From the NCBI GenBank assembly GCA_012295275.1, contig CM022671.1, positions 6,448,001 through 6,512,000 on the forward strand: a DNA stretch of 64,000 bases. The letters are read 5' to 3'. The notes beneath the pieces are model-generated. The model was not told the DNA's origin. It was given only the letters and a program-made list of their open reading frames with translations, and did no database searches. Source of the DNA: Chrysomallon squamiferum (lineage: Eukaryota > Animalia > Mollusca). Made by a program: the position numbers and the translations under genes. This document shows, in pieces, positions 3,841-37,400 of this stretch (within the stretch, counting starts at the first letter, position 1; each line of letters opens with the position of its first letter).

Positions 3841-6800
3841 CTGACAGCAGATTTGGGTATAGAGCCGTACAGCAGGACATTGAGACCCCTGTACAGCCCA
3901 CGCACGCCGTGTTCACGCACCGTGACCTTGACACAGTCGATGGGCCCCTGGTAGCGTTTCTGCACCCCTGCCCGCTCGTCCAGCTGCAGCTGGGTCTTCA
4001 CATACTCCGTGGGAAACGTGATGCAGATCTCCAAACCTCCAGTTATACCCCCTGCAACACACAAATTACATTAATTTGTAGTTGTTTGTATAAAAATGTA
4101 TGTTTGTGTAAATATGTAAAGTATACAGATCTCCAAACCTCCAGTTATACGCAAATTACATTAATTTGTAGTTGTTTGTGTAAATATGTAATTTGTATTT
4201 GTTTGTGTAAAAATGTAATTTGTATTTGTTTGTGTAAATATGTAAACTATGCAGATCTCCAAACCTCCTGTTATACCCCCTGCAACACGCAAATTACATT
4301 AATTTGTATCTGTTTGTGTAAATATGTAAACTATTCAGATCTCCAAACCTCCAGTCATACCCCCTGCAACACACAAACCACATTAAGTTGTAGTTGTTTG
4401 TGTTTGTGTAAAAATGTAATTTGTATGTGTTTGTGTAAATATGTAAAGTATACAGATCTCAAAACCTCCAGTTATACCCCCTGCAACATGCAAATTACAT
4501 TAAGTTGTAGTTGTTTGTGTAAATATGTAAACTATACAGATCTCCAAACCTCCAGTTATACTACCTGTAAACACAAATTAAATTAATTTGTATTTGTTTG
4601 TGTAAATATGCAAAGTATACAGATTACTAAACCTGCAGTTATACCCCCTGCAACACACAAATTACATTAAGTTGTATTTATTTGTGTAAATATGTAAACT
4701 ATACAGATTTCCAAACCTCGTTATACCACCTGCAACACACAAATTACATTAAATTGTAGTTGTTTGTGTAAAAATGCAATGTGTATGTTTGTGTAAATAT
4801 GTAAACTATACAGATCTCCAAACCTCCAGTTATACCACCTGCAACACACACATTACATTAATTTGTAGTTGTTTGTGTAAATATGTAAACTATACAGATC
4901 TCCAAACCTCTAGTTATACCACCTGCAACACACAAATTACATTAATTTGTAGTTGTTTGTGTCAATATGTAAACTATACAGATCTCCAAACCTCCAGTTA
5001 TACCACCTGCAAAACGCAAATTACATTAAGTTGTAGTTATTTGTGTCAATATGTAAAGTATACTGATTTTTAAACCTTCAGTTATACCACCTGTAAACAT
5101 GCAAATTACATTAAGTTGTATATCTTTGTGTAAACAAGTAATTTGTATTTGTTTATGTAAATATTAAAGTATATAGATTTCTAAATCTCTAGCTAAACCA
5201 CCAGTGAACACAAATACTATATGTAGTTTGTATGTGTTTGTGTAAATGTGCAATTTCTGTCTGGTTATGTAAATATATAATTTGTGTTTGTTTGTGTAAA
5301 CCTGTATTATATGCAGATTTCTAAACCTCAGATAAATCGTGTGTAAGCTATTTTTAGTTTTGTTGCAAATGTCGGTATTTTTAAAAAAAACATTTTTTGC
5401 ACTATACATAATGTTTGTTTTACTTTTAATGGAACTGAAAACTAAAACTGCAGCTCAAATTACACAAAACTGTGGCTTGCTGTAACTGGCTTGTCTCCAC
5501 TATTCTTCGAACCTGGTAACCAAGCTTGTCCACAAAAAATATGCTTAACCCCAAATCATTATAAAAATAATTAAAATATCATCAAAATATTAACAAAAAC
5601 ATCACACGGTTCACTGTGATAATTCTACTAATTAATCATTACTTGTTGTTGTGAAAATATTACCAGTTTTCCCACTGTTACTAACCCGACAATGTTTTCT
5701 AAACAACTAGTAATGATTAATGGCTGTGTGAAAACAGATGCATTCAATAAAGCCATTCATCAGTGACAACCAGGATGTTCACACTCCACTGATCTTTGTG
5801 TATTTTATTATGAATTGTTAACTTGATCTATATCTGCAGTCAACATCAGCAAACTGGGATGATAATTAAAAAAATGTTTACGTACATGTTTTTTTACGTA
5901 TATGTTTACCTGTGTGTCTGATGTGTGCTGGTGATAAACCATTTTATGCATAACTCTGATGTTAAAATACAACAGTAACATGCACATAAACACAGACAGA
6001 CAGACAAACACATTATCATTATCATGACAGCATGAGAAGTTTTGTTATTAATAAAAACTGAAAAGAAAATAAAGCTATTCAAAATTACCTTTATAAGCAG
6101 TGGTTTGAAACTGATTAGATCTTGATTTTAAAGATTTATTTTATTCTTGTATTATGTATGATATGGTGTTATGTTTGAACAAAGTAAAAAACCTGGGAGG
6201 TTACTAAAACTCAGTTTTTAAACAATGTACCGATAGCAACACTGATCTGAGTGTGAAATCACATACACACAGACACACTAACATCCACACACATTCATAC
6301 ATAAACAGACACAGGCACATACTTACACATATACAAACAAAAATATATACAGACATACAAATAAACACAAACATTCACACATAGAAACCAAAGTACATAC
6401 ACACAAATGTACACACACAGACATATACAATTACACACACACACACACACATAAACATGCACATACACATTCTTACACACACACACACAGAGGAATTGCA
6501 CAGTTGACACACAGAGAAGTTTAAAACCGATATATTAATGCTTTTGTCTGTTCTGTTGTACATTCTGTACATTTTGTAACACAAGTATCTGTCACAGGTC
6601 TGAGAACAATTTGACAGAAAGAAACAAAGAGACTAACACAGCAAATCTGTGAAGTGAAATCTGACTCAGAGTGTCAAATGACAACATCAGCAGTTAAAAT
6701 ATATTTCTGTTTAAAAAGTTATTTTCATCCTCTCTCTCTCTCACACACACACACACACACACAAATATACACAAACATTTGTACAAACATTTAAAAACTC

Positions 6801-34400: not shown

Positions 34401-37400
34401 ACCTGTAATAATACACACACACTGAATTATCAAACACCTGTAATAATACACACACACATGAATTATCAAACATCTGTAATAATACACACACTGAATTATC
34501 AAACATCTGTAATAATACACACACTGAATTATCAAACATCTGTAATAATACACTCAATGAATTATCAAACATCTGTAATAATACACACACTGAATTATCA
34601 AACATCTGTAATAATACACACACTGAATTATCAAACATCTGTAATAATACACACACACATGAATTATCAAACATCTGTAATAATACACACACTGAATTAT
34701 CAAACACCTGTAATAATACACACACACATGAATTATCAAACACCTGTAATAATACACACACTGAATTATCAAACACCTGTAATAATACACACACACATGA
34801 ATTATCAAACATCTGTAATAATACACACACTGAATTATCAAACACCTGTAATAATACACACACTGAATTATCAAACACCTGTAATAATACACACACTGAA
34901 TTATCAAACACCTGTAATAACACACACACATACACTGAATTATCAAACACCTGTAATAATACACACATACACTGAATTATCAAACACCTGTAATAATACA
35001 CACACTGAATTATCAAACACCTGTAATAATACACACACATACACTGAATTATCAAACACCTGTAATAATACACACACATACACTGAATTATCAAACACCT
35101 GTAATAATACACACACTGAATTATCAAACATCTGTAATAATACACACACTGAATTATCAAACATCTGTAATAATACACACATGAATTATCAAACACCTGT
35201 AATAATACACACACTGAATTATCAAACACCTGTAATAATACACACACTGAATTATCAAACACCTGTAATAATACACACACACTGAATTATCAAACACTGG
35301 TAATAATACACACACAATGAATTATCAAACACTGGTAATAACACACACACATACACTGAATTATCAAACACCTGTAATAATACACACACAATGAATTATC
35401 AAACACTGGTAATAACACACACACTGAATTATCAAACACTGGTAATAATACACTCAATGAATTATCAAACACCTGTAATAATACACACACTGAATTATCA
35501 AACACCTGTAATAATACACACACACTGAATTATCAAACACCTGTAATAATACACACACTGAATTATCAAACATTTGTAATAATACACACACTGAATTATC
35601 AAACATTTGTAATAATACACACACATACACACACATGAATTATAAAACACATGTAATACACACACACACATGAATTATCAAACATCTGTAATACACACAC
35701 ACACTGAATTATAAAACACCTGTAATACAACACACTGAATTATCAAACACCTGTAATAATACACACACACTGAATTATCAAACACCTGTAATAATACACA
35801 CACAGACACTGAATTATCAAACACCTATAACAACACACACACACTGAATTATCAAATATCTACAATAACAACACACACACACACTGAATTATCAAATATC
35901 TACAATAACAACACACACACACACACACACTGAATTACCGAACATCTGTAATAATAACACACACACTGAATTATCAAACACCTGTAATAATACACACACA
36001 GACACTGAATTATCAAACACCTGCAATAATACACACACTGAATTATCAAACACCTGTAATAATACACACACACACACTAAATTATCTAACACCTATAATA
36101 ACAACACAGATACTGAATTATTAAACACCTGTAATACACACACATGAATTATAAAACACCTGCAATATCAACACACACACACACACTGAATTATCAAACA
36201 TCTATAACAACACACACACACTGAATTATCAAATATCTACAATAACAACACACACACACACTGAATTATCAAATATCTACAATAACAACACACACACACA
36301 CACACACTGAATTACTGAACATCTGTAATAACAACACACACACTGAATTATCAAACACAGTAAATTATAGAACATACTTAATTATCAAACACAGTAAGTT
36401 TTAAAACATGCACACATTTGGCTGTCATTTTGCAGCAGTCTACAGTTCTTTGAATCAGAGGAAACAGCACCAGATAACAGACATCCACCAGAAAGTTTGT
36501 TTCAGACAAAGTCACATGATCACTGGTTGTAAAATACATCCTGTGAATATTCAGACACAATACTGTATACTGTATCAAGTAATCTGTGAATTATTTAAAC
36601 AAAACTGTGTAAGGTAATCTGTGAATTTTCAGACATTGTGCTTGTTTACATCTCTCTGTGGGTTTTGTTTTTTTGTTTTTGTATCTGTACACTGTGGACA
36701 TTTATTACAGAATCAATATTATCCCAAAAAACACAGTAAACATATCACCACTGTTTTACCTGCTGGGGTGATGTGTTTGTATAAATGTCACTGCTGACAC
36801 TCATAGAGACAGGAATGTCCAACGATGAACAACATTCTTCCTGCTTCATAAATATTCCTTTTCTGAAGGCATCGATGTAGGTGTACTGCTGATTTGGTGA
36901 GGCCCTGAAGTCACAACAATATTCCGTTATCAACTCAAATAATATGTAAATTATTTTGTTTAAATTAAAGTGTATTTCTGATAGTCCATGCATCAAGACA
37001 TAACACTGAATCATAAAACATATTTCTGTGTGGTTACTTTGATTAGTGAAACCAACCTTTGTTAATTACAAAGTGTGAAAATTCTATACTAAACCTACAA
37101 GGTGGCATGAAGGAAAAAATTAATCATCCTTTCATGACATAACGTCACAGATAAAAAGATGTAAAAAAAATTAAAAAATATTGAAAGTACAGATAATGTT
37201 ACCATTATTTAGGTCATTCTCTTCACCGAGCAAATAATTTCAGGTACAAAATGATTACAGGAAAGACGAGAAAACACACAAACAGTACTGTCTATATTTA
37301 AATATTTTTAAAGTACTCACATTGGGTTTTCCAACCAGCGGAGCAGAAAGTGAGTCGGGAAACTGACAGGCTCACACGCAACTCCCAGTCGCCTAGCAAC

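What the first reader, a model, noticed from the sequence alone, without database searches (positions are those of the whole stretch)
4024..36390. Minisatellites are systematically built from splice junctions, with unit lengths divisible by 3
Seen: four unrelated arrays in two genes each start at an exon boundary and repeat the splice site plus adjacent exon bases into the intron. They are the SLC25A1 exon 2 acceptor (84 bp, about 13x), FBXO21 exon 11 acceptor (30 bp, about 85x), FBXO21 exon 8 donor (39 bp, about 10x) and FBXO21 exon 8 acceptor (about 33 bp, about 80x). In general the copies decay with distance from the exon. Older arrays also abut junctions (57 bp at 37463; about 30 bp at 29000 and at 22770). 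All modal units are 3n, whereas several non-junction arrays are not (53, 77, 44 bp; the 48-bp 3'UTR array is an exception). Inference: either a mutational process seeds tandem expansions at exon edges, or selection keeps frame-preserving ones. Either way the spliceosome must pick one site among up to about 85 near-identical decoys. I do not know whether this has been described for this lineage.
Basis: partly seen in the sequence, partly recalled or inferred. Interest (0 to 1): 0.8.

Follow-up and report, generated by a model that had tools for sequence, protein, structure and literature searches.

The report
Snail splice-junction "mirage" minisatellite cluster
In two snail genes, four short pieces spanning an exon edge are copied head to tail about 11 to 85 times into the neighbouring intron; RNA uses the copy next to the exon at both borders tested, so this is likely a tolerated repeat type already known from lancelets and humans, and the evidence that unit lengths are selected to keep the reading frame is weak.

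Summary
The four arrays are real: each unit joins exon-edge bases to the splice signal (84, 30, 39, ~33 bp). The host is a gastropod (best FBXO21 hit Gigantopelta aegis). This is the known 'mirage' class (amphioxus; human F7, CBS, LMNB2), and the scan has noted it in other genomes and once elsewhere in this one. RNA contigs use the exon-proximal site at both borders tested (exon 11 acceptor 3 of 3 runs, exon 8 donor 2 of 3). 'Systematic' overstates it: 4 of 46 junctions, though above chance in this window (P~0.001, selected after the fact). New here: intron 8, whose eight in-frame decoy donors outscore the true one, is read through in 3 of 3 RNA runs while intron 9 is fully spliced. No genome-wide test was possible.

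The parts
4021..5306 (-). 84-bp acceptor mirage: about 54 nt intron end plus about 30 nt of SLC25A1-like exon 2; 13 copies, 10 with intact AG, none in frame and stop-free
   Evidence: gene name recalled from the translation, no search call
3841..4051 (-). SLC25A1-like exon 2; true acceptor at 4051 (exon 1 at 20146-20200)
   Evidence: open frame across the joint; not tested in RNA
29415..32042 (-). 30-bp acceptor mirage: 11 nt intron plus 19 nt of FBXO21 exon 11; 83 decoys, 75 with AG, none productive; fills 2609 of the 2679 nt of intron 10; higher-order duplications at offsets of about 510, 690 and 1203 nt
29276..29433 (-). FBXO21 exon 11; true acceptor 29433 joined to exon 10 in 3 of 3 RNA runs
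32954..33518 (-). 39-bp donor mirage: 24 nt of exon 8 end plus 15 nt intron; 11 decoys, the 8 nearest with GT all in frame and stop-free, reading GTAAGT (score 9.2) against the true GTATGT (7.5)
32903..33489 (-). FBXO21 intron 8; RNA contigs run from exon 9 into its 3' part in 3 of 3 runs (seen as far as 33020, the end of the stretch laid); full read-through would add 130 residues of 13-aa repeats, then a stop
33490..33669 (-). FBXO21 exon 8, flanked by a mirage on each side; true donor 33490 joined to exon 9 in 2 of 3 RNA runs
33662..36397 (-). About 33-bp acceptor mirage: 8 nt of exon 8 plus about 25 nt intron with a variable (TG)n; 76 decoys, 68 with AG, only the 4 nearest in frame and stop-free
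   Evidence: not tested in RNA
32113..32183 (-). FBXO21 exon 10 (joined to exons 9 and 11 in RNA)
32777..32902 (-). FBXO21 exon 9
37463..37651 (-). Older 57-bp array, about 3 copies, ending at the exon 6 acceptor (37454); no exon sequence detectable in it
28996..29260 (-). Older 29-31-bp array starting about 15 nt from the exon 11 donor; no exon sequence detectable
22770..22925 (+). Old 30-bp array, 5 copies, starting at the GT of tektin-like intron 2; no exon sequence detectable
   Evidence: gene name recalled
27808..28420 (-). 48/46-bp array whose unit derives from the FBXO21 coding end across the stop codon: anchored on a coding edge that is no splice site
27377..27608 (.). 77-bp array away from any junction (control)
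55627..55957 (.). 44-bp array in the 3' region of a CDC25-like gene (control; paralogous copy at 61398-61680)
   Evidence: gene name recalled
1..421 (.). 53-bp array in SLC25A1-like intron 2, cut by the window edge; junction status unknown

Best explanation
These four arrays are 'mirage' minisatellites: each unit is a piece spanning an exon edge, repeated into the intron, likely started by a local tandem duplication and grown by unequal exchange, and likely tolerated because splicing takes the copy next to the intact exon (seen in RNA at two of the four borders). SHOWN: the units contain exon plus splice signal; the exon residues (HLNINL, RYDY/RYLY, VFERM) are conserved in other snails and the protein has no repeat-derived insert, so the copy ran from exon to intron; proximal-site use at two borders. 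INFERRED: duplications wholly inside coding sequence are purged, while those across an edge survive and can only grow outward; short ancestral introns (only 51 and 70 nt of introns 8 and 10 lie outside the arrays) make touching an edge easy; an exon-anchored array likely lasts longer because deletions on one side are purged; exon definition (first donor after, last acceptor before the full exon) would pick the true site. The 3n lengths are mostly chance, perhaps with a weak early filter. The 39-bp donor array likely carries a modest cost in slow or incomplete removal of intron 8.
For: Junction copies at 4 of 46 junctions. RNA loose ends map uniquely to the true exon 11 acceptor (3 of 3 runs) and the true exon 8 donor (2 of 3), with no decoy joint among the 7 RNA contigs laid. 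Protein is colinear with 5 gastropod FBXO21 proteins at the array borders (the partial P0005 lacks the later ones). An array also starts on the stop codon, so coding edges in general anchor arrays. The window is rich in tandem duplication at all scales (two PSMB3-like and two CDC25-like copies). The same anatomy and silent decoys are reported in amphioxus and human genes.
Against: Passive survival alone does not obviously give an 8-fold excess at junctions (4 against 0.5), and the 16-kb SLC25A1 intron 1 has its one strong minisatellite exactly at the acceptor. All 4 spanning units are 3n (P=0.012), 6 of 7 with the older ones (P=0.007). The donor window of the 39-bp unit is almost invariant (1 of 24 distinct variants in 12 of 39 columns, P=0.002; copies were partly found by that motif), and the decoys nearest exon 8 are in frame and open on both sides. 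Intron 8 read-through shows the array may not be silent.
Confidence: 0.68

Rival explanations
1. Mutational bias: this genome seeds minisatellites preferentially at a TTACAG/CTGTAA-like core or at coding edges, and because 3' splice sites are TTACAG-like, arrays pile up at acceptors. This can act together with the best explanation.
For: CTGTAA/TTACAG is in 6 of 11 consensus units (0.65 expected), in 4 of 8 after removing the acceptor-spanning arrays (0.46 expected, P=0.0003 for this motif) and in 3 of 4 arrays away from splice sites. 3 of the 4 mirages are acceptors. The junction excess gives P=0.001.
Against: The motif was noticed after the fact. Corrected for any 6-mer with 2 or more G/C, P=0.08 without the acceptor arrays (0.61 for any 6-mer). 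The 39-bp donor, 44-bp, 84-bp and two 30-bp consensus units lack it. One window only.
Confidence: 0.15
2. Selection keeps frame-preserving (3n, stop-free) units because decoy sites are used often enough to matter.
For: 4 of 4 modal units are 3n; 46 of 76 variable 33-bp units are 3n; the 8 nearest donor decoys and 4 nearest acceptor decoys around exon 8 are in frame and open, giving a 235-codon open frame around a 60-codon exon. An unchecked note gives a 69-bp unit elsewhere in this genome (e1-10689075).
Against: Only 12 of 162 intact decoys are productive (0/10, 0/75, 4/68, 8/9). 84-bp units have an in-frame stop. No stop among 24 variants has P=0.26 by chance, and the synonymous excess has P=0.08. 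The stop-codon array is also 3n. Published units are 3n in 3 of 7 cases (37, 31, 100, 81, 60, 108, 157). The 33-bp unit count is not independent (shared descent).
Confidence: 0.1
3. The 39-bp donor array is a kept regulatory device: stronger decoy donors slow intron 8 removal and tune FBXO21 output by retention and likely nonsense-mediated decay, or add 13-residue repeats.
For: Read-through into intron 8 in 3 of 3 RNA runs (depth 7.5, 7.2, 15.4 against spliced 14.1, none, 34.5) while intron 9 has depth 0. Decoys outscore the true donor and are conserved.
Against: Contig depths are rough; the three runs come from one study and may hold nascent RNA. The true donor is weak, and the 51-nt unique part of the intron may alone explain slow splicing. 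No decoy joint was seen. Conservation of the array in other species could not be tested.
Confidence: 0.05
4. The arrays or their lengths are assembly artefacts.
For: Exact internal duplications of up to 317 nt at offset 1203 in the 30-bp array; no long reads were laid across an array.
Against: Copies are diverged and mosaic (77-90% matches), which collapse or expansion errors do not create. An independent DNA run matches the intron 8 sequence up to 33020. Copy number may be off; existence is not in doubt.
Confidence: 0.02

Closest known systems
Amphioxus 'mirage' minisatellites (Adh3, globins BflGb6 and BflGb9, troponin C, PGBD5); PMC3087553 and PMC3902484, passages read; the original Adh3 paper not seen
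   Same: [quoted passage not shown]
   Different: Here in a gastropod; up to 83 decoys against 3-6 units in BflGb6; one exon flanked on both sides; read-through of one mirage intron seen; length or somatic instability not tested here.
Human junction-spanning VNTRs: F7 IVS7 (37 bp), CBS IVS13 (31 bp), LMNB2 (100 bp), PDGF intron 4 (81 bp), interferon-inducible 6-16; PMC1557585, abstract and passages read
   Same: First unit spans the exon-intron border; identical pseudo-sites; the most upstream donor is used, even against pseudo-sites with better U1 pairing, which matches the 39-bp array.
   Different: Those listed are donor-side, one per gene, mostly not 3n. Here three of four are acceptor-side. 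In CBS and 6-16 the nearest pseudo-sites are used; none was seen used here (contigs only).
Internal tandem repeats at exon-intron boundaries in human segmental duplications; PMC2812944, outline and passages read
   Same: Repeats at exon borders, mostly in frame when they touch coding sequence, sometimes spliced out and sometimes retained.
   Different: Those form new introns out of exonic repeats. Here the coding protein carries no repeat, and the arrays extend what look like existing introns (intron age not tested).

Membership tests
Mirage / junction-spanning minisatellite | Head-to-tail array whose unit contains both exon-edge and intron-edge sequence | tested here: met
   for the four young arrays; not met for the three older abutting arrays
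Mirage / junction-spanning minisatellite | Reiterated AG or GT splice signals in the intron | tested here: met
   162 intact decoys (10+75+68+9); many score at or above the true site
Mirage / junction-spanning minisatellite | Authentic exon-proximal site used in mRNA | tested here: met
   exon 11 acceptor 3 of 3 runs, exon 8 donor 2 of 3; the exon 8 and SLC25A1 acceptors were not tested
Mirage / junction-spanning minisatellite | No interference with regular splicing | tested here: inconclusive
   no decoy joints, but read-through into intron 8 in 3 of 3 RNA runs
Mirage / junction-spanning minisatellite | Copy-number polymorphism or somatic instability | not testable with these tools
   no second haplotype or long reads across the arrays
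Functional tandem micro-exon array | Units in frame, stop-free and under purifying selection | tested here: not met
   12 of 162 decoys productive; 14 non-synonymous against 9 synonymous variants in the best case, P=0.08
Functional tandem micro-exon array | Units included in mRNA or protein | tested here: not met
   intron 10 array wholly removed in 3 of 3 runs; no insert against homologues; contigs drop rare forms
Intron gain by tandem duplication (Rogers model, as cited in PMC3087553) | Whole intron made of duplicated exonic sequence containing AG|GT, absent from relatives | tested here: inconclusive
   the exon 8 and exon 11 acceptors read AG|GT, but each intron keeps unique sequence (362, 51 and 70 nt); intron positions in relatives could not be fetched

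The most novel reading that the evidence does not exclude
In this snail lineage minisatellites are seeded genome-wide at a TTACAG-like core and at coding edges, turning splice junctions into repeat nurseries. Frame-preserving units are enriched, and the number of decoy donors acts as a heritable dial on intron retention (FBXO21 intron 8, roughly a third unspliced). The genome would then be a natural library of hundreds of splice-site competition experiments.
Probability: 0.15. Interest if true: 0.65.

Novelty: new member of a known kind. Interest (0 to 1): 0.3.

Why it matters
As it stands, this is a dense molluscan example of a known but little-studied repeat class: three mirages in one gene, one exon flanked on both sides, up to 83 decoys. 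It offers natural substrates for asking how acceptors are chosen among identical copies, whereas the mechanistic work read here (F7) is donor-side. Mirages also explain large intron growth (FBXO21 intron 10 is 97% array) and can mislead gene annotation. It would matter more if a genome-wide count showed targeted seeding or 3n selection, or if copy number set intron retention; none of that is shown.

Tried and rejected
(1) Genome-wide test and orthologous loci: no whole genome is held and the genome index did not complete. Enrichment outside this window, the left end of the 53-bp array and conservation in other snails stay open. (2) No RNA was obtained for FBXO21 exons 1-8 or SLC25A1, so the exon 8, exon 6 and SLC25A1 acceptors are untested. 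4 of the 5 runs found were laid (X4 not). (3) Exon homology in the three older arrays: not found, so they are not counted as mirages. (4) Micro-exon array: rejected. (5) DNA contamination as the cause of intron 8 coverage: rejected, because intron 9 and the 5' part of intron 10 have depth 0 in X1-X3 while DNA run X5 covers them. Nascent RNA or an alternative start or acceptor further up intron 8 is not excluded. The A>T difference at 32986 is treated as an allele. (6) Selective destruction of decoy AGs: those columns vary no more than their neighbours in the 30- and 33-bp arrays (read by eye). The SLC25A1 copy nearest the exon has lost its AG by deletion, a single case. (7) First exon coordinates were wrong and were replaced; CDC25-like exon 2 was corrected from then on; the second CDC25-like copy's borders used are off by up to 5 nt. 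(8) Nine paper searches found no molluscan mirage report and no genome-wide or 3n test; the library lacks most subscription papers. The original Adh3 paper could not be fetched. No supplements were read; those of PMC3087553 hold unit alignments.
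Full report
Setting. The window is AT-rich animal DNA (GC 0.24-0.37). FBXO21 exon 8 finds 5 proteins among 12 candidates, all gastropod, best Gigantopelta aegis at 85%. 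Exon models with GT/AG borders translate openly for an SLC25A1-like gene (2 exons in the window), a tektin-like gene (6), FBXO21 (12) and two PSMB3-like genes; two CDC25-like copies follow. Only the FBXO21 name comes from a call; the others are recalled from the translations.

The four arrays. TRF finds them at the stated places. Each unit is a junction piece: 84 bp (about 54 intron + 30 exon), 30 bp (11 + 19), 39 bp (15 + 24) and about 33 bp (about 25 + 8). A blind scan of 46 junctions with a 15+15-nt probe found a significant copy in the adjoining 250 nt of intron at these four only (24-30 of 30 matches; the other 42 scored 13-20). The FBXO21 protein aligns without inserts to five gastropod homologues at these borders (the partial P0005 lacks the later ones), and the copied exon residues are conserved in them. 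The exon is therefore older than the array. The arrays make up 2728 of 3090, 536 of 587 and 2609 of 2679 nt of introns 7, 8 and 10.

More than chance? I collapsed 11 independent arrays to one unit each and re-seeded them at random outside pure coding sequence. This gives 0.5 junction-spanning arrays against 4 seen (P=0.001) and 0.8 within 20 bp against 7 (P about 1e-5); the results are similar within genes alone. Inside compact FBXO21 the chance per array is much higher: 12-23% spanning, 23-33% near. The window was also flagged because of this pattern, among very many windows. No genome-wide test could be run. So local enrichment is shown and 'systematic' is not: 4 of 46 junctions, 3 of them in one gene.

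Older arrays and controls. The 57-bp, 29-31-bp and tektin 30-bp arrays abut junctions, the last starting on the GT itself. Their exon-side probes score no better than shuffles (P 0.99, 0.57, 0.70), while positive controls give 0 of 2000. The 53-bp array is cut by the window edge. The 48-bp unit matches the FBXO21 coding end across the stop codon (score 53; background mean 25, maximum 34). It is anchored on a coding edge with no splice site, and it is 3n where frame cannot matter. Decay with distance holds for the 33-bp array (rho -0.35) but not the 30-bp array.

The 3n claim. Four of four gives P=0.012 and six of seven P=0.007, but against the arrays away from junctions P=0.07-0.09. The functional test is harsher. 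Intact decoys that are in frame and stop-free number 0 of 10 (SLC25A1), 0 of 75 (exon 11), 4 of 68 (exon 8 acceptor) and 8 of 9 (exon 8 donor). Both 84-bp units translated have an in-frame stop. In the 39-bp array the open frame is partly inherited from the exon; staying open has P=0.26 and the synonymous excess P=0.08. Unit lengths given in the papers read are 37, 31, 100, 81, 60, 108 and 157, of which 3 of 7 are 3n.

RNA. Five runs hold the gene; four were laid on 32010-33020. X5 behaves as DNA; X1-X3 are RNA contigs from one study. Intron 9 is skipped in 3 of 3 runs. Loose ends map uniquely to 29401-29430, that is exon 10 joined to the true acceptor at 29433, in 3 of 3, and to 33494-33523, the true donor at 33490, in X1 and X3. 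No decoy joint appeared among the 7 RNA contigs; contigs drop rare forms. Position, not strength, decides: by a weight matrix from the window's own 23-24 junctions, about half of the acceptor decoys equal or beat the true site, and the donor decoys score 9.2 against 7.5. Unexpectedly, contigs run from exon 9 into intron 8 in 3 of 3 runs (depth 7.5, 7.2, 15.4; spliced form 14.1, none, 34.5), while intron 9 has depth 0. By record length the X3 contig would end near 33282 and the DNA contig near 33266, where 25-29-mers begin to repeat. That fits unspliced read-through, but the letters beyond 33020 were not seen. Full retention would give 130 residues of 13-aa repeats and a premature stop. Nascent RNA or an alternative start or acceptor remain possible.

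Mechanism. The most likely chain is a local duplication across a coding edge, survival because the first donor or last acceptor beside the complete exon is used, and outward growth by unequal exchange (higher-order offsets of 513, 690 and 1203 nt). The anatomy and two splice choices are shown; duplication mechanics, purging and exon definition are inferred. A mutational contribution is possible: CTGTAA/TTACAG occurs in 6 of 11 units and in 3 of 4 arrays away from splice sites, but corrected for motif choice the signal is P=0.08 without the acceptor arrays.

Prior knowledge. PMC3087553 (passages) describes amphioxus 'mirages': tandem duplications of 5' and 3' exon boundaries that do not disturb splicing and whose origin is unclear. 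PMC3902484 (passages) adds PGBD5 and troponin C. PMC1557585 (abstract and passages) lists human F7, CBS, 6-16, LMNB2 and PDGF and shows that the most upstream donor wins even over stronger pseudo-sites. PMC2812944 (outline and passages) covers repeats at human exon borders. The mirage lead came from an unchecked scan note (e1-10689075); similar notes exist for octopus, sea urchin, annelid, comb jelly and a cartilaginous fish. Nine searches found no molluscan paper or genome-wide 3n test.

Verdict. This is a real, dense example of a known class. The leads worth following are the intron 8 read-through, the stop-codon-anchored array and the shared TTACAG core. Interest 0.3.

Noticed in passing
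window 32903-33020 (FBXO21 intron 8): RNA contigs read from exon 9 into intron 8 in 3 of 3 runs at roughly a third of the summed depth, while intron 9 has none.
   Followed up: partly
window 27808-28420: The 48/46-bp array derives from the FBXO21 coding end across the stop codon.
   Followed up: yes
arrays at 1-421, 27377, 27808, 29415, 33662, 37463: Six unrelated units share CTGTAA/TTACAG; a possible minisatellite core motif.
   Followed up: partly
window 45480-48904 and 52422-53838: Two tandem PSMB3-like genes whose exon 2 is diverged in the first third and almost identical in the rest, suggesting partial gene conversion.
   Followed up: no
window 56000-58367 and about 61726-64000; remnant near 55400-55620: Tandem CDC25-like copies, each followed by a 44-bp array, plus a decayed partial copy of the gene's 3' end.
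   Followed up: no
window 41500-41686 (+): A short ORF of about 60 aa with one hydrophobic stretch, head to head with FBXO21 (read by eye).
   Followed up: no
window about 50330-50830 (-): An ORF-like remnant that looks like a pogo/Tigger-type transposase piece (recalled resemblance, no search).
   Followed up: no
window 4127-4170: The SLC25A1 decoy nearest the exon has lost its acceptor by deletion; the nearest intact one lies 228 nt upstream.
   Followed up: partly
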